The notes under the pieces were generated by a model that was given only the letters and a program-made list of their open reading frames with translations, did not search any database and was not told the origin of the DNA. 64,000 nt of DNA from Eledone cirrhosa (lineage: Eukaryota). Within the stretch, counting starts at the first letter, position 1. Each line of letters opens with the position of its first letter. Location: assembly GCA_964016885.1 (NCBI GenBank), contig CAXHJY010001394.1:62001-126000 (forward strand). Reading direction: 5' to 3'. Shown piece by piece: positions 391 to 56,506 of this stretch. The translations under genes were made by a program, and so were the position numbers.

Positions 391-473
391 TGTCATGTTT
401 ACAAAAATATTTTTCTAATATCGTGTTTAATATTTTATATTGTCGTCTGCTTCTCTTCTCACGTGGTTACTAA

Positions 474-7250: not shown

Positions 7251-7259
7251 GTAATCATT

Positions 7260-8076
7260 ACAGAGTGTACTGGGTGTATTTTAGTGGGCAGTAATTCCAT
7301 AAAGAACACAGTATAATCTGTGGACACAAGCCTTGCAGTGTGATTACAGGCAGGTTAATGGGAAAGATAGATTATATATGTGACATGATGTACATGAGAA
7401 GTGAGGACACAGACCACACATGAAATAGATTCCTACAACTGTCAGGGAGGCTCCCTAGAATTACAGATGACATATTTCAATATCTCGGTGATCAAGTTAG
7501 CAGTGGAGGAAGAATCTCTAAAAGTGTAATACCCAGGATAAGGACAGGCTGGAAGAAGTTTAGAGTACTGTTCCATCTGTTGACAACAAAGGGCTTCTCT
7601 CTCAGAATGGAGGCTAGACTGCTTGATACTTATGTGTGGTCTGCAATCTACACCCCAGCCATGCCCCTTCCACTACCACTCCTTAGCTATTTCTCTCCAT
7701 TAATACTCCTCACATTTCAAGCAGTTTTCTCATCTCAATGAAAGAAAAATATTGGGCTCAAGAGAAGTCTTCAGTTATGCCATGGTGTGGCAACCTCCCT
7801 AGGGTTGGGCAGAGTGTAAATGAGAGTGAAATTAGGTATGAGAGGGATCATATGCAGTATACAAGAGAGTAGATTACATTGGTATGGTCATGTGATGGGT
7901 ATAAAGGATGACAGCTGTATAAAAATGTGCTGGGCAATCAAAGTTGATGGAAGTTATGAAGGCGGAAGACCCAGGATGACCTGGGATGAGGTGATAAAAG
8001 ATGACTTTGCACAATTGCAACTCTCAAAGACAATGACACAGGATAGAGATCTTGAGATGTATGCAGCAATACAGAA
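7260..8076 (+). pseudogene. Decayed RTE-clade LINE 3' fragment (post-RT Cys-rich region and C-terminus)
   Basis: Frameshifted YLGDQVSSGG and RIRTGWKKFR motifs, plus ORF 7820-8113 RLHWYGHVM..GRPRMTWDEVIKDDF. It is homologous to the minus-strand piece at 4130-4330 and is truncated by the satellite array. Confidence 0.82.
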
Positions 8077-11000
8077 GGCCCTGTGCGTCGATCGTGGGCC
8101 GGCCGGATGTTGACGGATCGATGTGTAATTAGAAGTACATGTGCGGACACTCATTGGCTGTGCGTGGTATGCATTTCAGCAAGATATCTCCGTAACATCA
8201 AGAGTTATGGCTGTGGAGGCACACCTAGTCAAACGTAAACAAGCTCTGGAGCGTATACGCTTCGCGATTTTGTTTACGTTTGACTAGGTGTGCCTCCACA
8301 GCCACAACTCTTGATGTTACGGAGATATCTTGCTGAAATGCATACCACGCACAGCCAATGAGTGTCCGCACATGTACTTCTAATTACACATCGATCCGTC
8401 AACATCCGGCCGGCCCACGATCGACGCACAGGGCCGGATGGCCCGTTTGCAGTGAATTTTCACCGGAATCGATCTGTAATTACTGGTACATGTGCGGACA
8501 CACATTTGCTGTGTGTGGTGTGATTTTCACGAAAAACTGCCCATGCTAAATGAGGAAGCTGAAGTCCGCCGGCGAATGGTGTGCTTCGAAGAAAACTAAT
8601 TCGAAAATGACCGTTTGCAGGCGGAGTAACCTTTTCGATCGTGGGCCAGCCGCCCGTGGTGGGATACATCTGTAATTACTGGTACATGTGCGGACACACA
8701 TTTGCTGTGTGTGGTGTGATTTTCGAGAAAGACTGCCCATGCTAAATGAGGAAGCTGAAGTCCGCCGGCGAATGGTGTGCTTCGAAGAAAACTAATTCGA
8801 AAATGACTATTTGCCGGCGGAATCACCTTTTCGGTCCTGGTCCGGCCGGATCTTGCCGGATCGATCGGAAATTTGTGGACCATGTTCGGAAGGCCATTGT
8901 GCATGTGTGGTGAAAAAAATTTGTGTCGAAATCTTCTCGGAAAATAACGGATCGCCGGCGGAGATTGCCATTTCGATCGTGGGCCGGCCGGATCTTGTCG
9001 GATCGATTCGGACATATGTGCATCGTGTTCGCAAGGCCCTTGTCTATGTGTGGTGTGATTTTCATAAAGAAATTCCGAAAAACCCAGTTTTAAATCTGAT
9101 TTCGCCAAAGAATTTTGGCTATCAGATCGGGTTGAAAGGTATGGTTTCAGGTCGATCTGAAAGTCTAAAATGGAATTCACTCGGTTAGCTAACTTTTGAT
9201 ATATCGGAGATATCTTTCTGAAAATCACACCACACACTCCCAATGAGTGTCTGCACATGTACGAGTAATTACAGATGGATCCCACCACGGGCGGCCGGCC
9301 CACGATCGAAAAGGTTACTCCGAAGCACACCATTCGCCGGCGGAATTCATTTAGCATGGGCAGTTTTTCTCGAAAATCACACCACACACAGCCAATGAGT
9401 GTCCGCACATGTACCAGTAATTACAGATGGATCCCACCACGGGCGGCTGGCCCACGATCGAAAAGGTTACTCCGCCTGCAAACGGTCATTTTCGAATTAG
9501 TTTTCTTCGAAGCACACCATTCGCCGGCGGACTTCAGCTTCCTCATTTAGCATGGGCAGTTTTTCTCGAAAATCACACCACACACAGCAAATGTGTGTCC
9601 GCACATGTACCAGTAATTACAGATCGATTCCGGTGAAAATTCACTGAAAACGGGCCATTCTGCCCTGTGCGTCGATCGTGGGCCGGCCGGATGTTGACGG
9701 ATCGATGTGTAATTAGAAGTACATGTGCGGACACTCATTGGCTGTGCGTGGTATGCATTTCAGCAAGATATCTCCGTAACATCAAGAGTTATGGCTGTGG
9801 AGGCACACCTAGTCAAACGTAAACAAGCTCTGGAGCGTATACGCTTCGCGATTTTGTTTACGTTTGACTAGGTGTGCCTCCACAGCCACAACTCTTGATG
9901 TTACGGAGATATCTTGCTGAAATGCATACCACGCACAGCCAATGAGTGTCCGCACATGTACTTCTAATTACACATCGATCCGTCAACATCCGGCCGGCCC
10001 ACGATCGACGCACAGGGCCGGATGGCCCGTTTTCAGTGAATTTTCACCGGAATCGATCTGTAATTACTGGTACATGTGCGGACACACATTTGCTGTGTGT
10101 GGTGTGATTTTCACGAAAAACTGCCCATGCTAAATGAGGAAGCTGAAGTCCGCCGGCGAATGGTGTGCTTCGAAGAAAACTAATTCGAAAATGACCGTTT
10201 GCAGGCGGAGTAACCTTTTCGATCGTGGGCCAGCCGCCCGTGGTGGGATACATCTGTAATTACTGGTACATGTGCGGACACACATTTGCTGTGTGTGGTG
10301 TGATTTTCGAGAAAGACTGCCCATGCTAAATGAGGAAGCTGAAGTCCGCCGGCGAATGGTGTGCTTCGAAGAAAACTAATTCGAAAATGACTATTTGCCG
10401 GCGGAATCACCTTTTCGGTCCTGGTCCGGCCGGATCTTGCCGGATCGATCGGAAATTTGTGGACCATGTTCGGAAGGCCATTGTGCATGTGTGGTGAAAA
10501 AAATTTGTGTCGAAATCTTCTCGGAAAATAACGGATCGCCGGCGGAGATTGCCATTTCGATCGTGGGCCGGCCGGATCTTGTCGGATCGATTCGGACATA
10601 TGTGCATCGTGTTCGCAAGGCCCTTGTCTATGTGTGGTGTGATTTTCATAAAGAAATTCCGAAAAACCCAGTTTTAAATCTGATTTCGCCAAAGAATTTT
10701 GGCTATCAGATCGGGTTGAAAGGTATGGTTTCAGGTCGATCTGAAAGTCTAAAATGGAATTCACTCGGTTAGCTAACTTTTGATATATCGGAGATATCTT
10801 TCTGAAAATCACACCACACACTCCCAATGAGTGTCTGCACATGTACCAGTAATTACAGATGGATCCCACCACGGGCGGCCGGCCCACGATCGAAAAGGTT
10901 ACTCCGAAGCACACCATTCGCCGGCGGAATTCATTTAGCATGGGCAGTTTTTCTCGAAAATCACACCACACACAGCCAATGAGTGTCCGCACATGTACCA

Positions 11001-14000
11001 GTAATTACAGATGGATCCCACCACGGGCGGCTGGCCCACGATCGAAAAGGTTACTCCGCCTGCAAACGGTCATTTTCGAATTAGTTTTCTTCGAAGCACA
11101 CCATTCGCCGGCGGACTTCAGCTTCCTCATTTAGCATGGGCAGTTTTTCTCGAAAATCACACCACACACAGCAAATGTGTGTCCGCACATGTACCAGTAA
11201 TTACAGATCGATTCCGGTGAAAATTCACTGAAAACGGGCCATTCTGCCCTGTGCGTCGATCGTGGGCCGGCCGGATGTTGACGGATCGATGTGTAATTAG
11301 AAGTACATGTGCGGACACTCATTGGCTGTGCGTGGTATGCATTTCAGCAAGATATCTCCGTAACATCAAGAGTTATGGCTGTGGAGGCACACCTAGTCAA
11401 ACGTAAACAAGCTCTGGAGCGTATACGCTTCGCGATTTTGTTTACGTTTGACTAGGTGTGCCTCCACAGCCACAACTCTTGATGTTACGGAGATATCTTG
11501 CTGAAATGCATACCACGCACAGCCAATGAGTGTCCGCACATGTACTTCTAATTACACATCGATCCGTCAACATCCGGCCGGCCCACGATCGACGCACAGG
11601 GCCGGATGGCCCGTTTTCAGTGAATTTTCACCGGAATCGATCTGTAATTACTGGTACATGTGCGGACACACATTTGCTGTGTGTGGTGTGATTTTCACGA
11701 AAAACTGCCCATGCTAAATGAGGAAGCTGAAGTCCGCCGGCGAATGGTGTGCTTCGAAGAAAACTAATTCGAAAATGACCGTTTGCAGGCGGAGTAACCT
11801 TTTCGATCGTGGGCCAGCCGCCCGTGGTGGGATACATCTGTAATTACTGGTACATGTGCGGACACACATTTGCTGTGTGTGGTGTGATTTTCGAGAAAGA
11901 CTGCCCATGCTAAATGAGGAAGCTGAAGTCCGCCGGCGAATGGTGTGCTTCGAAGAAAACTAATTCGAAAATGACTATTTGCCGGCGGAATCACCTTTTC
12001 GGTCCTGGTCCGGCCGGATCTTGCCGGATCGATCGGAAATTTGTGGACCATGTTCGGAAGGCCATTGTGCATGTGTGGTGAAAAAAATTTGTGTCGAAAT
12101 CTTCTCGGAAAATAACGGATCGCCGGCGGAGATTGCCATTTCGATCGTGGGCCGGCCGGATCTTGTCGGATCGATTCGGACATATGTGCATCGTGTTCGC
12201 AAGGCCCTTGTCTATGTGTGGTGTGATTTTCATAAAGAAATTCCGAAAAACCCAGTTTTAAATCTGATTTCGCCAAAGAATTTTGGCTATCAGATCGGGT
12301 TGAAAGGTATGGTTTCAGGTCGATCTGAAAGTCTAAAATGGAATTCACTCGGTTAGCTAACTTTTGATATATCGGAGATATCTTTCTGAAAATCACACCA
12401 CACACTCCCAATGAGTGTCTGCACATGTACCAGTAATTACAGATGGATCCCACCACGGGCAGCCGGCCCACGATCGAAAAGGTTACTCCGAAGCACACCA
12501 TTCGCCGGCGGAATTCATTTAGCATGGGCAGTTTTTCTCGAAAATCACACCACACACAGCCAATGAGTGTCCGCACATGTACCAGTAATTACAGATGGAT
12601 CCCACCACGGGCGGCTGGCCCACGATCGAAAAGGTTACTCCGCCTGCAAACGGTCATTTTCGAATTAGTTTTCTTCGAAGCACACCATTCGCCGGCGGAC
12701 TTCAGCTTCCTCATTTAGCATGGGCAGTTTTTCTCGAAAATCACACCACACACAGCAAATGTGTGTCCGCACATGTACCAGTAATTACAGATCGATTCCG
12801 GTGAAAATTCACTGAAAACGGGCCATTCTGCCCTGTGCGTCGATCGTGGGCCGGCCGGATGTTGACGGATCGATGTGTAATTAGAAGTACATGTGCGGAC
12901 ACTCATTGGCTGTGCGTGGTATGCATTTCAGCAAGATATCTCCGTAACATCAAGAGTTATGGCTGTGGAGGCACACCTAGTCAAACGTAAACAAGCTCTG
13001 GAGCGTATACGCTTCGCGATTTTGTTTACGTTTGACTAGGTGTGCCTCCACAGCCACAACTCTTGATGTTACGGAGATATCTTGCTGAAATGCATACCAC
13101 GCACAGCCAATGAGTGTCCGCACATGTACTTCTAATTACACATCGATCCGTCAACATCCGGCCGGCCCACGATCGACGCACAGGGCCGGATGGCCCGTTT
13201 TCAGTGAATTTTCACCGGAATCGATCTGTAATTACTGGTACATGTGCGGACACACATTTGCTGTGTGTGGTGTGATTTTCACGAAAAACTGCCCATGCTA
13301 AATGAGGAAGCTGAAGTCCGCCGGCGAATGGTGTGCTTCGAAGAAAACTAATTCGAAAATGACCGTTTGCAGGCGGAGTAACCTTTTCGATCGTGGGCCA
13401 GCCGCCCGTGGTGGGATACATCTGTAATTACTGGTACATGTGCGGACACACATTTGCTGTGTGTGGTGTGATTTTCGAGAAAGACTGCCCATGCTAAATG
13501 AGGAAGCTGAAGTCCGCCGGCGAATGGTGTGCTTCGAAGAAAACTAATTCGAAAATGACTATTTGCCGGCGGAATCACCTTTTCGGTCCTGGTCCGGCCG
13601 GATCTTGCCGGATCGATCGGAAATTTGTGGACCATGTTCGGAAGGCCATTGTGCATGTGTGGTGAAAAAAATTTGTGTCGAAATCTTCTCGGAAAATAAC
13701 GGATCGCCGGCGGAGATTGCCATTTCGATCGTGGGCCGGCCGGATCTTGTCGGATCGATTCGGACATATGTGCATCGTGTTCGCAAGGCCCTTGTCTATG
13801 TGTGGTGTGATTTTCATAAAGAAATTCCGAAAAACCCAGTTTTAAATCTGATTTCGCCAAAGAATTTTGGCTATCAGATCGGGTTGAAAGGTATGGTTTC
13901 AGGTCGATCTGAAAGTCTAAAATGGAATTCACTCGGTTAGCTAACTTTTGATATATCGGAGATATCTTTCTGAAAATCACACCACACACTCCCAATGAGT

Positions 14001-15932
14001 GTCTGCACATGTACCAGTAATTACAGATGGATCCCACCACGGGCGGCCGGCCCACGATCGAAAAGGTTACTCCGAAGCACACCATTCGCCGGCGGAATTC
14101 ATTTAGCATGGGCAGTTTTTCTCGAAAATCACACCACACACAGCCAATGAGTGTCCGCACATGTACCAGTAATTACAGATGGATCCCACCACGGGCGGCT
14201 GGCCCACGATCGAAAAGGTTACTCCGCCTGCAAACGGTCATTTTCGAATTAGTTTTCTTCGAAGCACACCATTCGCCGGCGGACTTCAGCTTCCTCATTT
14301 AGCATGGGCAGTTTTTCTCGAAAATCACACCACACACAGCAAATGTGTGTCCGCACATGTACCAGTAATTACAGATCGATTCCGGTGAAAATTCACTGAA
14401 AACGGGCCATTCTGCCCTGTGCGTCGATCGTGGGCCGGCCGGATGTTGACGGATCGATGTGTAATTAGAAGTACATGTGCGGACACTCATTGGCTGTGCG
14501 TGGTATGCATTTCAGCAAGATATCTCCGTAACATCAAGAGTTATGGCTGTGGAGGCACACCTAGTCAAACGTAAACAAGCTCTGGAGCGTATACGCTTCG
14601 CGATTTTGTTTACGTTTGACTAGGTGTGCCTCCACAGCCACAACTCTTGATGTTACGGAGATATCTTGCTGAAATGCATACCACGCACAGCCAATGAGTG
14701 TCCGCACATGTACTTCTAATTACACATCGATCCGTCAACATCCGGCCGGCCCACGATCGACGCACAGGGCCGGATGGCCCGTTTTCAGTGAATTTTCACC
14801 GGAATCGATCTGTAATTACTGGTACATGTGCGGACACACATTTGCTGTGTGTGGTGTGATTTTCACGAAAAACTGCCCATGCTAAATGAGGAAGCTGAAG
14901 TCCGCCGGCGAATGGTGTGCTTCGAAGAAAACTAATTCGAAAATGACCGTTTGCAGGCGGAGTAACCTTTTCGATCGTGGGCCAGCCGCCCGTGGTGGGA
15001 TACATCTGTAATTACTGGTACATGTGCGGACACACATTTGCTGTGTGTGGTGTGATTTTCGAGAAAGACTGCCCATGCTAAATGAGGAAGCTGAAGTCCG
15101 CCGGCGAATGGTGTGCTTCGAAGAAAACTAATTCGAAAATGACTATTTGCCGGCGGAATCACCTTTTCGGTCCTGGTCCGGCCGGATCTTGCCGGATCGA
15201 TCGGAAATTTGTGGACCATGTTCGGAAGGCCATTGTGCATGTGTGGTGAAAAAAATTTGTGTCGAAATCTTCTCGGAAAATAACGGATCGCCGGCGGAGA
15301 TTGCCATTTCGATCGTGGGCCGGCCGGATCTTGTCGGATCGATTCGGACATATGTGCATCGTGTTCGCAAGGCCCTTGTCTATGTGTGGTGTGATTTTCA
15401 TAAAGAAATTCCGAAAAACCCAGTTTTAAATCTGATTTCGCCAAAGAATTTTGGCTATCAGATCGGGTTGAAAGGTATGGTTTCAGGTCGATCTGAAAGT
15501 CTAAAATGGAATTCACTCGGTTAGCTAACTATTGATATATCGGAGATATCTTTCTGAAAATCACACCACACACTCCCAATGAGTGTCTGCACATGTCCCA
15601 GTAATTACAGATGGATCCCACCACGGGCGGCCGGCCCACGATCGAAAAGGTTACTCCGAAGCACACCATTCGCCGGCGGAATTCATTTAGCATGGGCAGT
15701 TTTTCTCGAAAATCACACCACACACAGCCAATCAGTGTCCGCACATGTACCAGTAATTACAGATGGATCCCACTACGGGCGGCTGGCCCACGATCGAAAA
15801 GGTTACTCCGCCTGCAAACGGTCATTTTCGAATTCGTTTTCTTCGAAGCACACCATTCGCCGGCGGACTTCAGCTGCCTCATTTAGCATGGGCAGCTTTT
15901 CTCGAAAATCACACCACACACAGCCAATGAGT
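8077..15932. repeat. Palindromic satellite array 1: 4 x 1584 bp + 1520 bp
   Basis: Identical ORF set every 1584 bp. Palindrome axes at 8256, 9840, 11424, 13008 and 14592. Confidence 0.97.
9347..10333. repeat. Representative long inverted repeat of the satellite (~480-bp arms, 27-nt centre)
   Basis: 9347-9826 is the reverse complement of 9854-10333, with about 9 mismatches by eye and no indels. Confidence 0.93.
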
Positions 15933-16007
15933 TTAAAATACTCACCGTTTGATTTGGAAAAACTTAAAATGCTCACATATATATGTGTATGTATTTATCT
16001 ATGCATG

Positions 16008-16053
<46 letters not shown>

Positions 16054-19000
16054 TGTATTTATCTATGTATTTATCTATATGCATGGATATATATATATAT
16101 ATATATATTTATCTATGTATTTATCTATATGCATGGATATATATATATATATATATATATATGTATTTATCTATGCATGTATGAATATATAAAATATATA
16201 TATATATATATGTGTGTATGTATTTATCTATGCATGTATGAATATATAAAATATATATATATATATATATGTATGTATTTATCTATGCATGTATATATAT
16301 ATAAATATATACATAAATATATATATATATATATGTATTTATCTATGCATGTGTGCATACATATATATATATATATATGTATTTATCTATACATGTATGT
16401 ATATATATATATATACATATATAAGTATTTATCTATACATGTATGTATATATATATATACATATATATGTATTTATCTATACATGTATGTATATATATAT
16501 ATATATATATATGTATATAAGTATTTATCTATACATGTATGTATATATAAAATATTGTCATGTTTACAAAAATATTTTTCTAATATCGTGTTTAATATTT
16601 TATATTGTCGTCTGCTTCTCTTCTCACGTGGTTACTAACTCTCTCACCCTCTCTCTCTTTCCCCTCTCATACAACCCCTTCTTTCTCTTTCTTTCCCCTC
16701 TCACACAACCTCTTCTTTCTCTCTCTTTTTGCCAGTCCCTTCTCTCACTCTCTCTCCCTCTTCCTTTTTTTATCTCTTTCTTTCTGTCTCTGTTTCCCTC
16801 CTATAGACATTCTCTCTCTCTCTTTCTGCTCTCACTCAGCCTTCTCTCTCTTTCCCCTCTCACACAGTCTTCTCTCTCTCTCTTTCCCCTCTCACACAGC
16901 ATTCTCTCTCTCTCTCTCTCTCTTTCCCCTCTCACATAGCATTCTCTCTCTCTCTCTCTCTTTATTTCCCCTCTCACACAGCCTTCTCTCTCTATCTATC
17001 TATCTCTCTCTCTGGAGATTTTTTAACACAAAGTCACACAAGGATTAGAAAAATGGCGATTATCACTTTGAAAGTAACAATTATGCAATAAATAGTTGTT
17101 ATTGCCACGTCTCGTATCCTCCTTTGGCAATGTGTAAAATGTTAGCGAGATCGAGTGAACAATACACAAGTTATAATACTTTACAGACGGGACTTATACA
17201 GTAGATGTAGCAAAATGCGTAGATTACGATTCTTGAGACGAGATTAAAATATACGATTATGGGATACTTTAAGAAGACGAGTAGATGTTTGAGTAGATTT
17301 AGCTGCTTTTTCTAGCATTTTTAGTTATACTTTGAAGCAAATTTTTTTTGTTACTATTATATTAAAAGTTATCTGGTTACGTTATTTGACTGGTATTTCT
17401 AGCATTTTACAAGGACCACGTGTGTGTTTTATTTGAGGAAGATCTAGTTGTTATTTCTGATATTTTCTTCATCAAGTTAGTTGCTATTTCCTGCATCCTC
17501 TTGAAGACAAGGAATAATAATGAATTAGCTGCTGTTTCTAGTAGGTTCTATGGTAGTGGTGAGCGTGGGAGGGAGGTTTGACTGCTATTTTTAGCAGGTT
17601 CTAAGGCATTGAGGTTTATGTTTTACGAGAGATTTGGCTGTTATTTCTAACATGTTATAATGGAGAGAGAGAGAGAGAGTATAAGATATACAGAGAGAGG
17701 GAGTATAAGATATAGAGAGAGGGGAAACGGCCGATGTTTACGTTGAGAAAACCTAATAAAATGTTATAAATGGGTTTATAAAGAATAGAATGAGATAAAC
17801 AAGACAAAGTTAGATAAAATAAATCAGCTGTAAGGATATTATACGATATATTTATAATATTTTAATATATTTTTCCTGGTCGTCTGCTGCCATTGATAGA
17901 GAGAGGAGTGGTGGGAGGTAGCCATAACAACCGTGGTAGCAGCACTGAGGTTTGTTTTTAAAGAAGTGAATACAAGAAAAACAAGCAACTAAGAATATTA
18001 ATCTCTTAAACCCTTCAAGATGTGTATGACAAGAAAGAAGACGTTTTAGAGTCGTATGACATAGATGATAACTGGAAATTCTTACGTGACAACTTACTGC
18101 AGGCTACTGAAGAAACTTGTGGCTGGAGCAGAGCTCCGACCAGACAGAGAGTGACCTGGTGGTGGGACAACACGGTAGATAAGGCCATTAGAGACAAAAG
18201 ACTAGCATGGAACACTTGAAAAAATGGTGGGAGTAGAGACCGATACACAGCTGCTAAGAGAGAAGCTAGACGTCAGATGTACTTAGCACGCACGGAGGCT
18301 GAGAGTAGGAGGTTTGCCAATGTTCTGTGATGGGAAGATCAGAGGCGTGCGGTGTTCCACATTGCAAGGCATGGTGTCAGTGTAAATCAGGATGTTGTTG
18401 GAGATAAGTGTATCCGGAATGATGCCAGTGTACTTGGTGTCACGAATGATCAAAAAAAGGAGGCCTGGAAATATCATTATGAGAGGCTGATGAATTGTGG
18501 AGAATGAATGGGAGAGAGGGAAACTATCCCCAGTAGACCCAACAGAGGGACCAGCTATTGAGATTGGGGAATATAGGGTACAAGAGGCAATTAAGGAAAT
18601 GAAGAATGGCAAGGCTACTGGACTCTAGGGGATAGTTGCTCAGATGCTGAAGGCATCAGAAGTAGGCACTAAACTGGTTACACACATCATCAATCAAGCT
18701 ATATATGGTAGTGTCATACCCAAAGAATGGTGCAGCAGTATTCTCATAAATTGGTACAAAGGTAAAGGGGATGCTCTGGAGAGGAGCAATTATATGGGCA
18801 CTTCAATATTTAATGATACAGGTGATAAAACAACAACTATAAGGTAAATAAGTCACCTTATGTTATTTACAAACATTAACGTCCACCTTAATATGAAATA
18901 ATCACCATAAAAGAGGAAGCGAGGGCATCGGCTACCGGCACCCGGGCTGCTCTCTCATCCTGAGTGGGATCTTCCAGCGTTGATGCATCACCACGTTGAT

Positions 19001-22000
19001 GTAAAACTTGGTTTTTCACTTTGGGATAATACACGTATTTGCAACTTATTTATGTTTATTTACGTTGAGCGTAATCGATTTGTTTCCATATCTCCACGCG
19101 TTTTATTTCATAGTCATAGTTATAAAATTAGAAAACTTTCTTTAAAAAAAACAAATTAACGCGGGTAACTACAAGATAACCTTGTTTTGTAATACTGGCA
19201 GACATTGAAGATTCTTTATGGATGGTTGATACTCAGCTGCCAGGAACACAGGATGTGGCAGAGGGTATAAGATTTGCCTGCTATTTCTAGCAACTTCAAT
19301 GACCACATAATTGGTTTGTAATTTTGTTTTAAAGTGTAAGGGTTTACACAGCCATTTATGAATTTCTAAGAGATACGTTTACGATGAGATACACTTATTA
19401 AAAATACTTTCATTGCATAGTTCCGTTTGTAAAGGCTTTAATTTACTGTACTACTCGGGAACCTTTTAATAACACACAGGATTAAGTCCATGTTTGTTCA
19501 ACCAATTAATGGTATCTGCTGTAGTAGGGGTAACGATGGAAATATGGCGATGATTAACTCCACCCTGGGGTATAATGTAGAATTCATATTTTTCAACTTG
19601 CCCATACGTGTATTATCCCAAAGTGAAAAACCAAGTTTTACATCAACGTGGTGATTTCAAAGTTTATTTATTTACACATGGTGGTGGGGGGGGATACGGA
19701 AATAAACGAAGGTTGACGAATGACGTCACATTCTTCTACTTTCACTTCTGACAGCCAATTCCGTTGTAGTGCCATATATAAACATGATGGTCACGGCTGG
19801 AACAACTTTAATTATAGGTCTGCTCAATCATACTAACATGGGATTTAAATTGAGCAAAGTTGGAGTTGTCTCCCTTGGTACTTTACTACGCTACGTTTGT
19901 TTATATATATCATCATCATCATCTTCAACATTATCATTTAACGTTCATTGTTATCACACCTGCATGGGTTATACAGGTTGTCACGTTATGAGACATGTCA
20001 GGTGTGGAGACCAGGTCTCATATGGATGTGTATTTTGGTTTGGTTTCTAAGGCTGGATGCCCTTCTTAACACGAAACACGTTACAATGTGGACTGCACAC
20101 TTTTGTATGACCACCTTACAGGATGAACTGGGTGTTTTTATTGTTGTAGCATCAACGAGGTGTGTGGGATATTTAGCAGGTGAGGGCAGGGCCTTATGAA
20201 TAGGAAGGGGTGATGAGAAGATTGGTGAAGACTAGTGTGTTCTCTACATGTTTGTTTTATTTCATTTTCAGCACATGGGAGGGGGGGGGGGTCTTCTACA
20301 TTACAGCATGACGCCAGAGATCTCGATCCTGTGACATTTCCATTGAGAGGTTTAATTGGGCAAGGCGAGCTTTTATTATTTCATCCCAAGCTTTCCTAGG
20401 TCTTCCCCTTTCATAGTTAACATCGACTTTGACAACCCTGCACCTTGTTATACAGCTGTCACCTTCCATATACATCACATGTCCAAACCACCACAATCTC
20501 CTCTCCTCTACACTGCATCTGACCTCTCTTATACCTAGTTTCTCTCTCAGTTTATTAATGCTTGTTGTTCATGCACACTATTACACATCTATCAGATCCT
20601 GTAAACTTCATTTCTTTCCAGTCTTTATAGGTCCTCTGAATATATTGCCCTGGTCTCACTTCAATGTAACATTGCTGTTTGTACACAGACTTCATACAAT
20701 CTGCCTTTCACTTTCAGGGGAAATCATTTTGTAGGCATCAGTAGTAGTAGCTCCCTAAACTGTTTCCATCCCATTCTCACTCAGGCTACTGTACCTTCAG
20801 AACACCCACCTCCACTGTTAATTTGGTTAATTAAGTTAACAGAAATTATGAACCGGTTTCTACAGAGCCTTCTGGACATTTAACCCTTTAGCATTTAAAC
20901 CAGCCATACCTAGCCAGAATACTCTCACATCTTTCTGTTCAAACCAGCCATAACTGGCCACTCATACTGACGTTAAGGTATTGTTCTCAATATAAATAAT
21001 ATCAAAATCTCATAGATTCGATATTATATGAGATAATTATGTAAGATAAAGCCTTTACCACAAAAATACAATAGTATATATAGAGTAATAAAAATGCTAA
21101 AGGGTAAAAGTAGCTTATTATTTTGTGAGCTCTTGCTACTTATTGCTCTTGTGCATCAAGAACATACACAGCTTACATTTTGTTGCTAATCTCACTGAGA
21201 TCCAACTACATCTCTTGTTTATCCATAGTTTGGAATTTCTACCTACTCCTTTCCTTTAGAATGATCAAGGCCATTTTCTTGTGGGGATCTAGGCCCTGTT
21301 TTCCTTTCTATTTTGCCAAGTTATCTTACATCACTTTCATTCTAGACCATGCTTCCAGGTTTGGAATTTCTCCTCTAATTTTACCACAGATTAAGTGACA
21401 AGGGTTCAATCATGTGCATACAGGAGTTCCCATGGACAGCCAGTAATATGTAATAGCCTGCAGGATGATAATAAACAGAAGAGGGTTAATTACAGAGCCC
21501 TGATAGAGGGTTAATAACAGAGCCCTGATAGACTTGTTCACTCAACTCCTCACTATAGCCATCATTACTTTTAACCTTACTGACTGCTCCTCCATACATG
21601 GCTTTTACTGCTCTCACAAGCCACTCATATACCCCTAGTTTTCTAAGTTATACACCAGATTATGGAAGGGGGAAGTCTCACAGAAGCTCTCTCTGGGTCA
21701 ACAAATGCCAAGTAGAGGGGCTTATTTTAGCTAGGTACTACTCTTGCAGTTGCCACACAAGGAAGAGGACATCAGTGGTACTTTTACCTGGCACAAATCC
21801 AAACTTCATCTCATCTAGGTTAACTTGGTCCCTAATCAGCTGTGTTATAAATCTAACACCTTCATGAAGTGGTCCATCTAATATTTCTATAGTTTTCTAG
21901 CTCTAGTACATCTCCTTTGCCCTTGTAGCAGTTGATGATGATGATACTACACCATTTATTTGGTATGACACCATTTTGTATTACATGCTGTACGATACCA

Positions 22001-24242
22001 GTGGTTAAGATGTGACCCACCACCCCAGATACTTTCAGTATCTCAGCAACTATCACCAATGGACAAGATACTTTCTCTGTCTTCATATCCTTAATTACCT
22101 TACTACACTACTGCTTACTTGTATGGCTGGACCCTCTGTTGGGCCCACTTTCCGTAGACTATCTTCCTCCCATGCATTCTCCTCATTCAGTAATCTTTCA
22201 TAAAGGCATTTCCATGTTACAAAGGTTGGCTGAAAAGTTCATAGACTATCAATGATAGCATGATGCTAGAGCTGTGAAATCTTGCCTGCATTAATTTCAA
22301 CTCTTCTTATTAATAACTGCATTGTTTCCTTCCAGGGACTATGTTGAAAAATAAACCTCATTTGGTCATTCCATGAGTGTATCTTGGTCTGCCTATGAAC
22401 TTTTCAGCTGACCCTATTCAGCATCAGTGAGCCCAAATGCCCCATTATCATCCTGGACACACTTTACCCCAACATCACAATTTGCCCTCACACACTGCCT
22501 CACAATCCTGAACATCTCATGTATTTCATCCTCACATCATAAAACCAACTGAAATTATATATTCTCTGCTTCCCTCCTTGCAAAGAATACTTCTTGCCTA
22601 GCTTCCTGTAGTGTACCCTCCAGCTGCCTCCATTCTGCCATTATTCCATGCCTGTCTCTTGGCCTTAACTGTCTCATCTACCCTAGTGTTTCACCACCAA
22701 GATACTCTCCTCTCTGAAGCCCTGCTCCAGCCACAGATCTAGTTTGACACCTTCAGCAAAGGTTCTTTAAGGAACTCCCACTGTTCCCCTATATTGTATG
22801 TTTCTATTTGTTCTTCCTTACTGTTGTAAAGATCAAACAAAATATCTCTAAATTTGGAACTGGCTGAGGGGTCCTTTAACTTCCATATCCTTCTCCTCCA
22901 AGTTGCCCTCAGTCTTCAAGTTCATCTAAGTCTATGAAATCACTAACTACTGGGTTATGTTGGGAGGTGCATTCTTCCCCAGGGGGTGGGGATTGTGTGT
23001 TTACAAATGTCAATATCTCATCTTCTGGTGAGGATAAAAATCTGACTGGCATGCTCCTCTGACCAATAGGTGTTGAAGTGGTTGTCGGGTAAACGTTAAG
23101 ACCCTCTGATATACATATATATATATATACTAGCAGTGGTACCCGGCGTTGCACGGGATAACGTATTTCGGAACGCGGGCCGCCATCTTCCACTTCAGCC
23201 GGTCGCCCTAAAGTGTTGGCTATTCAGTCTACTTGAGGCCAGTTGGTGAGGGGGGGTAAAGCTTTCAGTGTGCTACTACCCTCACGGTCAAATAGAAAGG
23301 GAGAGGAAGAAAAGTCAGCGTTAATATCGTGCTACACGTTTGAAAGGTTGGATGACCTTAGAGTTCACCAGGGTGGGGGGTTCTAAAAGTATCTATCTTG
23401 GTATTTTATCTTAGAAGTAATCATTACAGAGTGTACTGGGTGTATTTTAGTGGGCAGTAATTCCATAAAGAACACAGTATAATCTGTGGACACAAGCCTT
23501 GCAGTGTGATTACAGGCAGGTTAATGGGAAAGATAGATTATATATGTGACATGATGTACATGAGAAGTGAGGACACAGACCACACATGAAATAGATTCCT
23601 ACAACTGTCAGGGAGGCTCCCTAGAATTACAGATGACATATTTCAATATCTCGGTGATCAAGTTAGCAGTGGAGGAAGAATCTCTAAAAGTGTAATACCC
23701 AGGATAAGGACAGGCTGGAAGAAGTTTAGAGTACTGTTCCATCTGTTGACAACAAAGGGCTTCTCTCTCAGAATGGAGGCTAGACTGCTTGATACTTATG
23801 TGTGGTCTGCAATCTACACCCCAGCCATGCCCCTTCCACTACCACTCCTTAGCTATTTCTCTCCATTAATACTCCTCACATTTCAAGCAGTTTTCTCATC
23901 TCAATGAAAGAAAAATATTGGGCTCAAGAGAAGTCTTCAGTTATGCCATGGTGTGGCAACCTCCCTAGGGTTGGGCAGAGTGTAAATGAGAGTGAAATTA
24001 GGTATGAGAGGGATCATATGCAGTATACAAGAGAGTAGATTACATTGGTATGGTCATGTGATGGGTATAAAGGATGACAGCTGTATAAAAATGTGCTGGG
24101 CAATCAAAGTTGATGGAAGTTATGAAGGCGGAAGACCCAGGATGACCTGGGATGAGGTGATAAAAGATGACTTTGCACAATTGCAACTCTCAAAGACAAT
24201 GACACAGGATAGAGATCTTGAGATGTATGCAGCAATACAGAA
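15933..24242. repeat. Spacer copy B (8310 bp)
   Basis: Same content as spacer A at +16166. Confidence 0.95.
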
Positions 24243-27200
24243 GGCCCTGTGCGTCGATCGTGGGCCGGCCGGATGTTGACGGATCGATGTGTAATTAGAA
24301 GTACATGTGCGGACACTCATTGGCTGTGCGTGGTATGCATTTCAGCAAGATATCTCCGTAACATCAAGAGTTATGGCTGTGGAGGCACACCTAGTCAAAC
24401 GTAAACAAGCTCTGGAGCGTATACGCTTCGCGATTTTGTTTACGTTTGACTAGGTGTGCCTCCACAGCCACAACTCTTGATGTTACGGAGATATCTTGCT
24501 GAAATGCATACCACGCACAGCCAATGAGTGTCCGCACATGTACTTCTAATTACACATCGATCCGTCAACATCCGGCCGGCCCACGATCGACGCACAGGGC
24601 CGGATGGCCCGTTTGCAGTGAATTTTCACCGGAATCGATCTGTAATTACTGGTACATGTGCGGACACACATTTGCTGTGTGTGGTGTGATTTTCACGAAA
24701 AACTGCCCATGCTAAATGAGGAAGCTGAAGTCCGCCGGCGAATGGTGTGCTTCGAAGAAAACTAATTCGAAAATGACCGTTTGCAGGCGGAGTAACCTTT
24801 TCGATCGTGGGCCAGCCGCCCGTGGTGGGATACATCTGTAATTACTGGTACATGTGCGGACACACATTTGCTGTGTGTGGTGTGATTTTCGAGAAAGACT
24901 GCCCATGCTAAATGAGGAAGCTGAAGTCCGCCGGCGAATGGTGTGCTTCGAAGAAAACTAATTCGAAAATGACTATTTGCCGGCGGAATCACCTTTTCGG
25001 TCCTGGTCCGGCCGGATCTTGCCGGATCGATCGGAAATTTGTGGACCATGTTCGGAAGGCCATTGTGCATGTGTGGTGAAAAAAATTTGTGTCGAAATCT
25101 TCTCGGAAAATAACGGATCGCCGGCGGAGATTGCCATTTCGATCGTGGGCCGGCCGGATCTTGTCGGATCGATTCGGACATATGTGCATCGTGTTCGCAA
25201 GGCCCTTGTCTATGTGTGGTGTGATTTTCATAAAGAAATTCCGAAAAACCCAGTTTTAAATCTGATTTCGCCAAAGAATTTTGGCTATCAGATCGGGTTG
25301 AAAGGTATGGTTTCAGGTCGATCTGAAAGTCTAAAATGGAATTCACTCGGTTAGCTAACTTTTGATATATCGGAGATATCTTTCTGAAAATCACACCACA
25401 CACTCCCAATGAGTGTCTGCACATGTACGAGTAATTACAGATGGATCCCACCACGGGCGGCCGGCCCACGATCGAAAAGGTTACTCCGAAGCACACCATT
25501 CGCCGGCGGAATTCATTTAGCATGGGCAGTTTTTCTCGAAAATCACACCACACACAGCCAATGAGTGTCCGCACATGTACCAGTAATTACAGATGGATCC
25601 CACCACGGGCGGCTGGCCCACGATCGAAAAGGTTACTCCGCCTGCAAACGGTCATTTTCGAATTAGTTTTCTTCGAAGCACACCATTCGCCGGCGGACTT
25701 CAGCTTCCTCATTTAGCATGGGCAGTTTTTCTCGAAAATCACACCACACACAGCAAATGTGTGTCCGCACATGTACCAGTAATTACAGATCGATTCCGGT
25801 GAAAATTCACTGAAAACGGGCCATTCTGCCCTGTGCGTCGATCGTGGGCCGGCCGGATGTTGACGGATCGATGTGTAATTAGAAGTACATGTGCGGACAC
25901 TCATTGGCTGTGCGTGGTATGCATTTCAGCAAGATATCTCCGTAACATCAAGAGTTATGGCTGTGGAGGCACACCTAGTCAAACGTAAACAAGCTCTGGA
26001 GCGTATACGCTTCGCGATTTTGTTTACGTTTGACTAGGTGTGCCTCCACAGCCACAACTCTTGATGTTACGGAGATATCTTGCTGAAATGCATACCACGC
26101 ACAGCCAATGAGTGTCCGCACATGTACTTCTAATTACACATCGATCCGTCAACATCCGGCCGGCCCACGATCGACGCACAGGGCCGGATGGCCCGTTTTC
26201 AGTGAATTTTCACCGGAATCGATCTGTAATTACTGGTACATGTGCGGACACACATTTGCTGTGTGTGGTGTGATTTTCACGAAAAACTGCCCATGCTAAA
26301 TGAGGAAGCTGAAGTCCGCCGGCGAATGGTGTGCTTCGAAGAAAACTAATTCGAAAATGACCGTTTGCAGGCGGAGTAACCTTTTCGATCGTGGGCCAGC
26401 CGCCCGTGGTGGGATACATCTGTAATTACTGGTACATGTGCGGACACACATTTGCTGTGTGTGGTGTGATTTTCGAGAAAGACTGCCCATGCTAAATGAG
26501 GAAGCTGAAGTCCGCCGGCGAATGGTGTGCTTCGAAGAAAACTAATTCGAAAATGACTATTTGCCGGCGGAATCACCTTTTCGGTCCTGGTCCGGCCGGA
26601 TCTTGCCGGATCGATCGGAAATTTGTGGACCATGTTCGGAAGGCCATTGTGCATGTGTGGTGAAAAAAATTTGTGTCGAAATCTTCTCGGAAAATAACGG
26701 ATCGCCGGCGGAGATTGCCATTTCGATCGTGGGCCGGCCGGATCTTGTCGGATCGATTCGGACATATGTGCATCGTGTTCGCAAGGCCCTTGTCTATGTG
26801 TGGTGTGATTTTCATAAAGAAATTCCGAAAAACCCAGTTTTAAATCTGATTTCGCCAAAGAATTTTGGCTATCAGATCGGGTTGAAAGGTATGGTTTCAG
26901 GTCGATCTGAAAGTCTAAAATGGAATTCACTCGGTTAGCTAACTTTTGATATATCGGAGATATCTTTCTGAAAATCACACCACACACTCCCAATGAGTGT
27001 CTGCACATGTACCAGTAATTACAGATGGATCCCACCACGGGCGGCCGGCCCACGATCGAAAAGGTTACTCCGAAGCACACCATTCGCCGGCGGAATTCAT
27101 TTAGCATGGGCAGTTTTTCTCGAAAATCACACCACACACAGCCAATGAGTGTCCGCACATGTACCAGTAATTACAGATGGATCCCACCACGGGCGGCTGG

Positions 27201-30200
27201 CCCACGATCGAAAAGGTTACTCCGCCTGCAAACGGTCATTTTCGAATTAGTTTTCTTCGAAGCACACCATTCGCCGGCGGACTTCAGCTTCCTCATTTAG
27301 CATGGGCAGTTTTTCTCGAAAATCACACCACACACAGCAAATGTGTGTCCGCACATGTACCAGTAATTACAGATCGATTCCGGTGAAAATTCACTGAAAA
27401 CGGGCCATTCTGCCCTGTGCGTCGATCGTGGGCCGGCCGGATGTTGACGGATCGATGTGTAATTAGAAGTACATGTGCGGACACTCATTGGCTGTGCGTG
27501 GTATGCATTTCAGCAAGATATCTCCGTAACATCAAGAGTTATGGCTGTGGAGGCACACCTAGTCAAACGTAAACAAGCTCTGGAGCGTATACGCTTCGCG
27601 ATTTTGTTTACGTTTGACTAGGTGTGCCTCCACAGCCACAACTCTTGATGTTACGGAGATATCTTGCTGAAATGCATACCACGCACAGCCAATGAGTGTC
27701 CGCACATGTACTTCTAATTACACATCGATCCGTCAACATCCGGCCGGCCCACGATCGACGCACAGGGCCGGATGGCCCGTTTTCAGTGAATTTTCACCGG
27801 AATCGATCTGTAATTACTGGTACATGTGCGGACACACATTTGCTGTGTGTGGTGTGATTTTCACGAAAAACTGCCCATGCTAAATGAGGAAGCTGAAGTC
27901 CGCCGGCGAATGGTGTGCTTCGAAGAAAACTAATTCGAAAATGACCGTTTGCAGGCGGAGTAACCTTTTCGATCGTGGGCCAGCCGCCCGTGGTGGGATA
28001 CATCTGTAATTACTGGTACATGTGCGGACACACATTTGCTGTGTGTGGTGTGATTTTCGAGAAAGACTGCCCATGCTAAATGAGGAAGCTGAAGTCCGCC
28101 GGCGAATGGTGTGCTTCGAAGAAAACTAATTCGAAAATGACTATTTGCCGGCGGAATCACCTTTTCGGTCCTGGTCCGGCCGGATCTTGCCGGATCGATC
28201 GGAAATTTGTGGACCATGTTCGGAAGGCCATTGTGCATGTGTGGTGAAAAAAATTTGTGTCGAAATCTTCTCGGAAAATAACGGATCGCCGGCGGAGATT
28301 GCCATTTCGATCGTGGGCCGGCCGGATCTTGTCGGATCGATTCGGACATATGTGCATCGTGTTCGCAAGGCCCTTGTCTATGTGTGGTGTGATTTTCATA
28401 AAGAAATTCCGAAAAACCCAGTTTTAAATCTGATTTCGCCAAAGAATTTTGGCTATCAGATCGGGTTGAAAGGTATGGTTTCAGGTCGATCTGAAAGTCT
28501 AAAATGGAATTCACTCGGTTAGCTAACTTTTGATATATCGGAGATATCTTTCTGAAAATCACACCACACACTCCCAATGAGTGTCTGCACATGTACCAGT
28601 AATTACAGATGGATCCCACCACGGGCAGCCGGCCCACGATCGAAAAGGTTACTCCGAAGCACACCATTCGCCGGCGGAATTCATTTAGCATGGGCAGTTT
28701 TTCTCGAAAATCACACCACACACAGCCAATGAGTGTCCGCACATGTACCAGTAATTACAGATGGATCCCACCACGGGCGGCTGGCCCACGATCGAAAAGG
28801 TTACTCCGCCTGCAAACGGTCATTTTCGAATTAGTTTTCTTCGAAGCACACCATTCGCCGGCGGACTTCAGCTTCCTCATTTAGCATGGGCAGTTTTTCT
28901 CGAAAATCACACCACACACAGCAAATGTGTGTCCGCACATGTACCAGTAATTACAGATCGATTCCGGTGAAAATTCACTGAAAACGGGCCATTCTGCCCT
29001 GTGCGTCGATCGTGGGCCGGCCGGATGTTGACGGATCGATGTGTAATTAGAAGTACATGTGCGGACACTCATTGGCTGTGCGTGGTATGCATTTCAGCAA
29101 GATATCTCCGTAACATCAAGAGTTATGGCTGTGGAGGCACACCTAGTCAAACGTAAACAAGCTCTGGAGCGTATACGCTTCGCGATTTTGTTTACGTTTG
29201 ACTAGGTGTGCCTCCACAGCCACAACTCTTGATGTTACGGAGATATCTTGCTGAAATGCATACCACGCACAGCCAATGAGTGTCCGCACATGTACTTCTA
29301 ATTACACATCGATCCGTCAACATCCGGCCGGCCCACGATCGACGCACAGGGCCGGATGGCCCGTTTTCAGTGAATTTTCACCGGAATCGATCTGTAATTA
29401 CTGGTACATGTGCGGACACACATTTGCTGTGTGTGGTGTGATTTTCACGAAAAACTGCCCATGCTAAATGAGGAAGCTGAAGTCCGCCGGCGAATGGTGT
29501 GCTTCGAAGAAAACTAATTCGAAAATGACCGTTTGCAGGCGGAGTAACCTTTTCGATCGTGGGCCAGCCGCCCGTGGTGGGATACATCTGTAATTACTGG
29601 TACATGTGCGGACACACATTTGCTGTGTGTGGTGTGATTTTCGAGAAAGACTGCCCATGCTAAATGAGGAAGCTGAAGTCCGCCGGCGAATGGTGTGCTT
29701 CGAAGAAAACTAATTCGAAAATGACTATTTGCCGGCGGAATCACCTTTTCGGTCCTGGTCCGGCCGGATCTTGCCGGATCGATCGGAAATTTGTGGACCA
29801 TGTTCGGAAGGCCATTGTGCATGTGTGGTGAAAAAAATTTGTGTCGAAATCTTCTCGGAAAATAACGGATCGCCGGCGGAGATTGCCATTTCGATCGTGG
29901 GCCGGCCGGATCTTGTCGGATCGATTCGGACATATGTGCATCGTGTTCGCAAGGCCCTTGTCTATGTGTGGTGTGATTTTCATAAAGAAATTCCGAAAAA
30001 CCCAGTTTTAAATCTGATTTCGCCAAAGAATTTTGGCTATCAGATCGGGTTGAAAGGTATGGTTTCAGGTCGATCTGAAAGTCTAAAATGGAATTCACTC
30101 GGTTAGCTAACTTTTGATATATCGGAGATATCTTTCTGAAAATCACACCACACACTCCCAATGAGTGTCTGCACATGTACCAGTAATTACAGATGGATCC

Positions 30201-33200: not shown

Positions 33201-33682
33201 TTGGCTATCAGATCGGGTTGAAAGGTATGGTTTCAGGTCGATCTGAAAGTCTAAAATGGAATTCACTCGGTTAGCTAACTATTGATATATCGGAGATATC
33301 TTTCTGAAAATCACACCACACACTCCCAATGAGTGTCTGCACATGTCCCAGTAATTACAGATGGATCCCACCACGGGCGGCCGGCCCACGATCGAAAAGG
33401 TTACTCCGAAGCACACCATTCGCCGGCGGAATTCATTTAGCATGGGCAGTTTTTCTCGAAAATCACACCACACACAGCCAATCAGTGTCCGCACATGTAC
33501 CAGTAATTACAGATGGATCCCACTACGGGCGGCTGGCCCACGATCGAAAAGGTTACTCCGCCTGCAAACGGTCATTTTCGAATTCGTTTTCTTCGAAGCA
33601 CACCATTCGCCGGCGGACTTCAGCTGCCTCATTTAGCATGGGCAGCTTTTCTCGAAAATCACACCACACACAGCCAATGAGT
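24243..33682. repeat. Palindromic satellite array 2: 5 x 1584 bp + 1520 bp
   Basis: Axes at 24422, 26006, 27590, 29174, 30758 and 32342. Same left and right junctions as array 1. Confidence 0.97.
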
Positions 33683-33757: not shown

Positions 33758-33803
<46 letters not shown>

Positions 33804-44900: not shown

Positions 44901-45095
44901 TCCGCACATGTACCAGTAATTACAGATGGATCCCACTACGGGCGGCTGGCTCACGATCGAAAAGGTTACTCCGCCTGCAAACGGTCATTTTCGAATTCGT
45001 TTTCTTCGAAGCACACCATTCGCCGGCGGACTTCAGCTGCCTCATTTAGCATGGGCAGCTTTTCTCGAAAATCACACCACACACAGCCAATGAGT
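41992..45095. repeat. Palindromic satellite array 3: 1584 bp + 1520 bp
   Basis: Axes at 42171 and 43755; same junctions. Confidence 0.97.
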
Positions 45096-56400: not shown

Positions 56401-56506
56401 TTCGAATTCGTTTTCTTCGAAGCACACCATTCGCCGGCGGACTTCAGCTGCCTCATTTAGCATGGGCAGCTTTTCTCGAAAATCACACCACACACAGCCA
56501 ATGAGT
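53403..56506. repeat. Palindromic satellite array 4: 1584 bp + 1520 bp
   Basis: Axes at 53582 and 55166. The last monomer is a hybrid of internal and terminal types. Confidence 0.97.

What the first reader, a model, noticed from the sequence alone, without database searches (positions are those of the whole stretch)
8077..15932. Tandem array of ~1-kb near-perfect palindromes (1584-bp foldback satellite)
Seen: every 1584 bp there is an inverted repeat with ~480-bp arms at about 98% identity by eye and only a 27-nt centre (e.g. 9347-9826 / 9854-10333). There are 15 such axes in the window; the first of each array has its left arm cut to ~170 bp. Established: long palindromes with short spacers extrude cruciforms, stall replication forks and are usually deleted, so an amplified tandem array of them is unusual. 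Inference: it may be a foldback-transposon-derived satellite, a structural chromosome element (centromeric or pericentromeric), or a hairpin-RNA locus whose transcript would form ~480 bp of dsRNA, a Dicer or ADAR substrate. The sequence alone cannot separate these options.
Basis: partly seen in the sequence, partly recalled or inferred. Interest (0 to 1): 0.8.

Follow-up and report, generated by a model that had tools for sequence, protein, structure and literature searches.

The report
Palindromic satellite nested in a macrosatellite
A 1,584-base non-coding repeat with a nearly perfect 1-kb palindrome in every copy sits in runs of 2-6 inside a larger 11-18 kb repeated block of an animal genome (likely an octopus relative); it is an unusually symmetric example of a satellite type already described in flour beetles, likely kept symmetric and copied by recombination, with no function shown.

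Summary
In detail: 15 palindrome axes, 11 with 480-bp arms (9 mismatches, 98.1%) around a 27-nt centre and 4 with the left arm cut to 166 bp. (1) The 1584-bp monomer is nine diverged copies of one ~135-196-bp subunit in alternating orientation, with a second, older inverted axis. (2) The arrays (5, 6, 2, 2 monomers, each less 64 bp) alternate with an 8.31-kb spacer of decayed LINE and microsatellite DNA that is 99.7-99.98% identical between copies, so the real unit is an 11.4-17.7-kb macrosatellite. The axis occurs letter for letter in two other public runs. The apparent spread over 16 coded organisms looks like trace contamination in the two foreign runs with laid contigs. One arm mismatch erased in one copy, and an unpaired half-arm that keeps an older signature, point to gene conversion between arms. 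Recombinant monomers point to unequal exchange. This is the architecture of Tribolium TBREV, TAUD2 and TmSat2 satellites, here with nearly identical arms and probably in a cephalopod. No target-site duplication, transposase or known RNA was found; centromeric and hairpin-RNA roles are untested.

The parts
8077..15932 (.). Array 1: 5 monomers of 1584 bp less 64 bp (7856 bp)
24243..33682 (.). Array 2: 6 monomers less 64 bp (9440 bp)
41992..45095 (.). Array 3: 2 monomers less 64 bp (3104 bp)
53403..56506 (.). Array 4: 2 monomers less 64 bp (3104 bp)
9347..9826 (+). Left arm of a full palindrome (type example), 480 bp
9827..9853 (.). 27-nt centre (axis 1): 7 x 8 nt bubble plus a perfect 12-bp palindrome at 9834-9845
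   Evidence: present as an 87-nt contig in runs X2 and X4
9854..10333 (+). Right arm, 480 bp, 9 mismatches to the left arm; perfect stretches up to 135 bp
8077..8435 (.). First, shortened palindrome of the array (166-bp arms, 1 mismatch)
10686..10765 (.). Second, older and degenerate inverted axis (axis 2, centre near 10725; also near 9141); divides the monomer into halves of 871 and 685 bp
9661..11210 (.). Nine related subunits sharing a ~60-nt core: 9661-9826 (+), 9854-10019 (-), 10056-10251, 10252-10447, 10448-10590, 10591-10724 (+), 10726-10862, 10863-11014, 11015-11210 (-); boundaries approximate
15683..15932 (.). Unpaired half-arm at the array end; 13 of 250 sites differ from the right arm against 6 of 250 for paired left arms; keeps the left-type subunit signature
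8077..8080 (+). 4-base microhomology (GGCC) joining the 3' end of a decayed LINE to the inside of the arm; contigs in X1 and X4 leave the window's sequence exactly here
43804..43804 (+). Arm position 36 in array 3: the right arm carries the left-arm base, so the mismatch seen in the other 14 axes is gone
15933..24242 (.). Spacer of the macrosatellite, 8310 bp: (TA)-rich and (TC)-rich repeats, decayed RTE-type LINE pieces, a DNA-transposon relic; copies at 1-8076 (part), 33683-41991, 45096-53402, 56507-64000 (part)
7307..8080 (+). Decayed LINE 3' part abutting the array (also LINE pieces at 1907-2654 + and 4115-6614 -)
   Evidence: family

Best explanation
This is a complex satellite DNA whose 1584-bp unit is built from nine inverted and direct copies of one short subunit and lies in runs of 2-6 inside a larger repeated block; its arms are likely kept near-identical by gene conversion between inverted copies, and its copy number likely changes by unequal exchange. 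Shown: the nested layout, loss and gain of whole monomers only, recombinant monomers, one erased arm mismatch, an unpaired half-arm with an older signature, and a microhomology join at the array start. Inferred: (a) old inversions of the subunit family made the two halves; (b) patchy conversion homogenised the inner 480 bp; (c) a join from the LINE end back into an arm made the head-to-tail 11-18-kb unit, which was then amplified; (d) the palindrome would form hairpins during replication, and breaks repaired between neighbouring direct copies would remove or add exactly 1584 bp and rebuild an intact palindrome, which explains why it persists where a lone palindrome would be deleted. It most likely works as self-renewing, non-coding repeat DNA, without a selected product.
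For: Architecture. All 4 arrays share both end points and have length n x 1584 - 64. Unequal exchange: the last monomer of array 4 carries only the 5 distal of the 9 variants shared by the last monomers of arrays 1-3; variant 1217 sits in monomer 3 of array 1 and monomers 3 and 5 of array 2. Conversion: in 1 of 15 axes arm mismatch 36 is erased with the partner's base; at arm positions 233 and 238 paired left arms carry the right-arm type while all 4 unpaired half-arms keep the type of the other left-hand subunits; mismatches remain on both sides of that tract (166/168 and 260/261), so homogenisation is patchy. Join: contigs in X1 and X4 follow the spacer to 8080 and go on into other letters, and LINE protein similarity ends at 8080. 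High copy and homogeneous: five listed X1 contigs cover 6990-8035 with no other letter at word depth 4,844-5,395. No product found: 0 of 9 frames with a Pfam family, two of them from the monomer; no Rfam match at gathering score in 1-18000 or 1050-11500; 0 tRNAs. Precedent: Tribolium satellites (PMC13081366, PMC12581902); long inverted repeats actively maintained in Caenorhabditis (PMC1803023 abstract).
Against: The erased mismatch is one site in one copy and could be a chance substitution. The extra divergence of the unpaired half-arm (7 of 250 sites against 2 of 1270 in the rest of the last monomer, p = 8e-5) is equally explained by array ends escaping exchange between monomers. The gradient of arm identity is not significant (1 of 165 against 8 of 315, p = 0.17). 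One recent inverted duplication could also give 98% arms. Hairpin formation and breakage are not shown; in cited work a 12-bp spacer stalled forks in eukaryotic cells and a 52-bp spacer did not (PMC7999016), and 27 nt lies between. The monomer keeps its CpG (observed/expected 1.15) while LINE pieces beside it are depleted (0.06-0.32), which a purely passive repeat does not predict. Chromosomal position and expression are unknown.
Confidence: 0.68

Rival explanations
1. The monomer or its half is a non-autonomous foldback/MITE-type transposon (long inverted ends made of tandem subunits) that piled up in tandem, as Tetris did in Drosophila virilis.
For: Each half begins and ends with the same kind of segment in opposite orientation (120-nt local alignment, score 148 against a shuffle maximum of 31); arms are built of ~196-bp tandem subunits, close to the ~220-bp subunits of Tetris (PMC4079207); in X1 many variant contigs and loose ends lie on the arm, so the subunit family has other members in the genome.
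Against: No target-site duplication at the array ends; the ends at axis 2 are only about 70% alike and the last bases at axis 1 are mismatched; no transposase in the unit; the array start is a microhomology join, not an insertion. Tetris gave a satellite of the subunit, not of the whole palindrome.
Confidence: 0.17
2. It is a structural (peri)centromeric repeat in which dyad symmetry is selected, as proposed for Tribolium.
For: Same architecture as the Tribolium satellites that span centromeric regions; high copy number and homogeneity in X1; variable monomer number in a fixed frame resembles TmSat2 'cassettes'.
Against: Arrays are only 3-9 kb and make up 36.7% of the window, interleaved with decayed LINE DNA, not with a major satellite; no CENP-B-box-like motif in the monomer (motif recalled); the function is also unproven in Tribolium.
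Confidence: 0.15
3. It is a hairpin-RNA locus: transcripts through axis 1 fold into ~480 bp of double-stranded RNA and feed Dicer or ADAR, perhaps silencing the subunit family.
For: The 987-nt palindrome folds with 482 pairs, -975 kcal/mol as RNA, with perfect stretches of 129, 91 and 135 bp; CpG is not depleted; CCAAT-box-like motifs lie about 100 bp either side of the axis (9743, 9937; chance 0.7% per subunit, noticed after the fact).
Against: No polymerase III boxes, TATAAA or AATAAA in the monomer; copy number varies freely from 2 to 6; strong folding follows from any long palindrome.
Confidence: 0.1
4. The palindromes or the tandem units are an assembly or read artefact.
For: Four internal monomers are identical to the majority; one raw-read run (X23) gave 0 reads, though that run is of another organism and only about 1 in 100 of it was read.
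Against: Fixed arm differences recur in 10 of 11 full palindromes; spacers differ by 2-19 substitutions with shared patterns; the centre contig exists in two other runs.
Confidence: 0.03

Closest known systems
[quoted passage not shown] 2005, seen only as cited in PMC13081366 and PMC12581902)
   Same: Long monomer in tandem, each with ~0.5-kb inverted arms. PMC13081366 calls it the most prominent intra-monomer dyad symmetry reported.
   Different: Arms here are 98% identical with a 27-nt centre (about 82% and longer spacers in T. brevicornis, recalled, not seen in a call); short arrays nested in a LINE-bearing macrosatellite; different phylum; no sequence comparison was possible.
Tribolium audax TAUD2 (~700-bp inverted subrepeats) and T. 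madens TmSat2/MAD2 (704 bp, seven related subunits, ~300-bp imperfect arms) (PMC12581902 passages, PMC13081366 passages and section 7 part 1)
   Same: Monomer made wholly of diverged copies of one short subunit in both orientations; halves of similar size (871 and 685 bp here); few monomers per array inside a fixed frame.
   Different: TmSat2 is embedded in a related major satellite and its arrays invert; here all monomers face one way and the frame is decayed transposon DNA; inner arms are nearly perfect.
Tetris foldback transposon of Drosophila virilis (PMC4079207, passages)
   Same: Inverted arms containing ~200-bp tandem subunits; non-coding.
   Different: Tetris has 8-10-bp target-site duplications, a flanking domain and dispersed copies, and its satellite is the subunit; none of these was found here.
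Long inverted repeats maintained by an active mechanism (Caenorhabditis, PMC1803023 abstract; human Y palindromes, PMC7999016 passage)
   Same: Arms more alike than their age suggests; conversion between arms.
   Different: Those are single loci with genes; this is a tandem non-coding unit.

Membership tests
Complex satellite DNA with inversely oriented subunits (TBREV/TAUD2/TmSat2 type) | Head-to-tail tandem monomers, homogeneous | tested here: met
   15 monomers, 0-3 differences from the majority for the 11 non-terminal ones, 5-12 for the 4 last ones
Complex satellite DNA with inversely oriented subunits (TBREV/TAUD2/TmSat2 type) | Monomer composed of related subunits in both orientations, giving long dyad symmetry | tested here: met
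   Nine subunits, two convergent axes
Complex satellite DNA with inversely oriented subunits (TBREV/TAUD2/TmSat2 type) | High copy number in the genome | tested here: inconclusive
   Spacer word depth about 5,000 in X1 and trace presence in foreign runs suggest high copy; single-copy depth unknown
Complex satellite DNA with inversely oriented subunits (TBREV/TAUD2/TmSat2 type) | Megabase (peri)centromeric arrays | not testable with these tools
   No genome held; arrays in the window are only 3-9 kb
Complex satellite DNA with inversely oriented subunits (TBREV/TAUD2/TmSat2 type) | Sequence homology to the Tribolium satellites | not testable with these tools
   No repeat library on hand; resemblance is of architecture only
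Foldback transposon (FB/Tetris/Galileo type) | Long inverted arms with internal tandem subunits | tested here: met
Foldback transposon (FB/Tetris/Galileo type) | Target-site duplication of about 8-11 bp | tested here: not met
   Best match at array ends 5 bp; matches at the axes only reflect the tandem period
Foldback transposon (FB/Tetris/Galileo type) | Dispersed single insertions; a mobilising transposase | not testable with these tools
   No genome; no transposase among 9 frames scanned
Hairpin-RNA / endo-siRNA locus | Long inverted repeat able to fold | tested here: met
Hairpin-RNA / endo-siRNA locus | Transcription and small RNAs from the arms | not testable with these tools
   No RNA run could be laid
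Macrosatellite (large tandem unit with internal VNTR) | Multi-kb tandem units of very high identity | tested here: met
   Start-to-start periods 16166, 17749, 11411 bp; spacers differ by 2-19 substitutions in 7,243-8,308 columns

The most novel reading that the evidence does not exclude
A CpG-rich, CCAAT-bearing palindromic unit, amplified to hundreds of copies in a cephalopod, is transcribed into ~480-bp hairpins that serve as a mass substrate for ADAR or Dicer, or its near-perfect cruciform marks centromeres; either would give the first functional palindromic satellite outside beetles and a direct test of the non-B-DNA model of centromere identity.
Probability: 0.12. Interest if true: 0.8.

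Novelty: new variant of a known kind. Interest (0 to 1): 0.4.

Why it matters
A 2026 paper calls long dyad symmetry inside satellite monomers uncommon and names a beetle satellite with ~470-bp arms as the strongest case (PMC13081366). This one has arms as long, 98% identical, a tiny centre, and probably comes from a mollusc, so the architecture has likely arisen independently in another phylum. Its fixed arm differences and unpaired half-arm make a natural record of conversion between arms, and it suggests how an unstable palindrome can persist: in tandem, repair removes whole units and rebuilds the palindrome. It would matter much more if it proved centromeric or a source of double-stranded RNA; neither is shown.

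Tried and rejected
No whole genome is held, so dispersal and chromosomal position were not tested. Rfam: 45 matches in 1-18000 and 10 in 1050-11500, all below gathering score, the former all on (TA)-rich repeats. ARAGORN 0 genes. Pfam 0 of 9 window frames. Protein searches with 4130-4402 gave nothing in two tries; the profile-free whole-library search then found 1,062 relatives. Subunit motif scans: 0 matches in metagenome, viral and prokaryote genome contigs, so no viral or bacterial origin is indicated. Sequencing runs: 20 of 24 listed rows hold part of the monomer, under 16 coded organisms and two wastewater rows; no RNA holder listed, which says nothing about expression. I laid 4 of the 24. 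X23 gave 0 reads and is no test. Summed depths on the arm in X1 (250,000-430,000) were not read as copy number, since overlapping variant contigs are added up. The target-site test at the two axes returned only the tandem period and was discarded. Telomere repeats: none in the window. Literature searches for cephalopod satellites or palindromes listed no description of this repeat; 'TBREV' gave 0 papers; Dfam and Repbase were not available. Earlier findings of the scan: nothing by place or sequence, nothing in one word search, and eight notes on unrelated genomes in another.
Full report
Observation. The 27-nt centre at 9827-9853 recurs 15 times. Eleven axes have ungapped 480-bp arms with 9 mismatches (98.1%); four, the first of each array, have 166-bp arms with 1 mismatch. 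The centre contains a perfect 12-bp palindrome at 9834-9845, so the predicted DNA stem is broken only by a 7 x 8 nt bubble. The whole 987-nt palindrome folds with 481-482 pairs (-645 kcal/mol as DNA, -975 as RNA), as any palindrome of this size would.

The level above. The window is a tandem run of a larger unit. Four arrays (8077-15932, 24243-33682, 41992-45095, 53403-56506) hold 5, 6, 2 and 2 monomers, each less the same 64 bp, and share both end points. Between them lies a spacer of 8310, 8309 and 8307 bp, with part copies at both window ends; the five copies differ by 2-19 substitutions in 7,243-8,308 aligned columns. Start-to-start periods are 16166, 17749 and 11411 bp, and the arrays are 36.7% of the window. 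The spacer holds (TA)- and (TC)-rich repeats, three decayed LINE pieces at 1907-2654 (+), 4115-6614 (-) and 7307-8080 (+) whose relatives carry reverse transcriptase, endonuclease and PHD domains (the label 'RTE type' is recalled), and a relic with short inverted ends at about 2630-3607. No gene was found: 0 of 9 frames match Pfam, no Rfam match reaches gathering score, no tRNA.

The level below. A 196-bp subunit appears as a direct pair in each monomer and in diverged copies on both strands. Alignment resolves nine subunits of about 135-196 bp sharing a ~60-nt core, five on one strand and four on the other. Past 480 bp the arms stay related through indels to a second, degenerate axis near 10725 (and 9141), which splits the monomer into halves of 871 and 685 bp. 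The segment next to axis 1 is homologous to the one next to axis 2 (score 148 against a maximum of 31 in 300 shuffles). So the monomer is a nested set of inversions of one subunit family. Divergence gives the order: subunits 55-95% alike at the core, outer halves about 70%, inner arms 98%, monomers over 99%.

Is it real, and whose? The monomer's words are held by 20 of 24 listed runs under 16 coded organisms and two wastewater rows. I laid 4 of the 24 on 6990-8270. In X1 (organism A) five listed contigs cover 6990-8035 with no other letter at word depth 4,844-5,395: this is the host species, possibly the very sample, and the spacer is high-copy and uniform. If single-copy depth were 15-50, an assumption, that would be a hundred to a few hundred copies. 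X2 and X4 (organisms B and D, other studies) hold the same letters at depth 2-8, X4 also 858 bp of decayed spacer without a difference. That is trace carry-over of a very abundant repeat, not conservation; it is shown for these two and inferred for the rest. Both hold an 87-nt contig made of the centre and 30 arm letters on each side, and a 232-nt arm contig at higher depth (8.45 against 4.94 in X4), as two arms per centre predict. Their libraries are not on record and the DNA may come from the same donor, so they confirm the axis in raw data, not in a second animal. X23 gave 0 reads and is no test. Host: among 257 relatives with 150 or more aligned residues, the best named one is an Octopus vulgaris protein (47% identity, rank 4; the three above it are unnamed), against 37% for Hydractinia proteins (another O. 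vulgaris hit). A cephalopod is likely but not established.

How it turns over. Whole monomers are gained and lost. The last monomer of arrays 1-3 carries nine shared variants; that of array 4 has only the five distal ones, a recombinant. Variant 1217 is in monomer 3 of array 1 and monomers 3 and 5 of array 2. For conversion between arms: at axis 43741 the right arm has taken the left-arm base at arm position 36 (43804), erasing a mismatch present at the other 14 axes. Each array ends inside a left arm that has no partner. These four half-arms differ from the right arm at 11-14 of 250 sites, paired left arms at 6, and at arm positions 233 and 238 they keep the type found in the other left-hand subunits, whereas paired left arms carry the right-hand type. 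Mismatches persist on both sides of that tract, so the overwriting was patchy. Against over-reading: the erased mismatch is a single site; array ends escape exchange between monomers anyway (7 of 250 against 2 of 1270, p = 8e-5); the identity gradient along the arm is not significant (p = 0.17). The array start is a join: LINE similarity runs to 8080, 8077-8080 (GGCC) belongs to both LINE and arm, and contigs in X1 and X4 leave the window's sequence exactly there. I infer that this is the head-to-tail junction of the amplified block and the reason the first arm is short, and that other copies of the spacer continue differently.

Mechanism, inferred part. Long, similar arms with short spacers are the most unstable; a 12-bp spacer stalled forks in eukaryotic cells and a 52-bp one did not (PMC7999016, passages). 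With 27 nt and a self-pairing tip, hairpins here are plausible but not shown. One fact is unexplained: CpG is intact in the monomer (observed/expected 1.15) though its subunits are old, while the LINE pieces are depleted (0.06-0.32). Lack of methylation or GC-biased conversion could each do this.

Comparison. PMC13081366 (passages and section 7 part 1) describes T. madens TmSat2, 704 bp, made wholly of seven related subunits with ~300-bp imperfect arms, mostly in arrays of up to 8 monomers inside a fixed frame; it calls long intra-monomer dyads uncommon and names the 1061-bp T. brevicornis satellite with ~470-bp arms as the most prominent. PMC12581902 (passages) adds TAUD2 with ~700-bp inverted subrepeats. 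The original papers of 2005 and 2010 were not read; the figure of about 82% arm identity for T. brevicornis is recalled. The present repeat works like these and meets the testable features of the kind; it is not shown to be homologous or centromeric. It resembles Tetris (PMC4079207, passages) in having arms of ~200-bp subunits but lacks a target-site duplication, so it is not filed as a foldback element. PMC1803023 was seen as abstract only; PMC6947457, PMC8122249 and PMC4107277 gave passages or reference lines that added nothing decisive. No supplements were opened. Four searches on cephalopod repeats listed no description of it, but the library is partial and Dfam and Repbase could not be searched.

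Verdict. A real, well-defined, probably undescribed satellite: a new variant of a known kind, notable for near-perfect arms, a tiny centre, nesting in a LINE-bearing macrosatellite and a readable record of conversion. Function is not shown. Interest 0.4; 0.8 if it proves centromeric or a hairpin-RNA source (probability about 0.12).

Noticed in passing
window 2630-3607 (and the same place in each spacer): Relic of a DNA transposon with short inverted ends inserted into a LINE piece; it holds an inner 61-bp inverted repeat at 95% identity (2821-2881 / 3429-3489).
   Followed up: partly
window about 6963-7030 and about 385-1035: A short GC-rich head after a (TA) run and a (TC)-rich minisatellite with a distinct tail look like the two ends of non-autonomous Helitron-like elements (resemblance recalled, not tested); depth in X1 rises on the head.
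   Followed up: no
window 8080, runs X1 and X4: Contigs leave the spacer into letters not present in the window, so other copies of the spacer in the genome continue differently; the full repeated block may be longer.
   Followed up: partly
window 59549-59588: A 16-bp local duplication present only in the last spacer copy, beside the inner inverted repeat.
   Followed up: no
window 9743 (-), 9937 (+), 10974 (+): CCAAT-box-like motifs (consensus recalled) placed symmetrically about 100 bp from the axis; none in the 8.3-kb spacer.
   Followed up: partly
monomer against 4100-6614 and 7307-8076: CpG observed/expected 1.15 in the satellite against 0.09 and 0.06 in adjacent LINE relics; unexplained.
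   Followed up: partly
runs listed: The repeat's words turn up under 16 coded organisms; in the two foreign runs with laid contigs it is identical at depth 2-8, so it may serve as a sensitive marker of carry-over between sequencing runs.
   Followed up: partly
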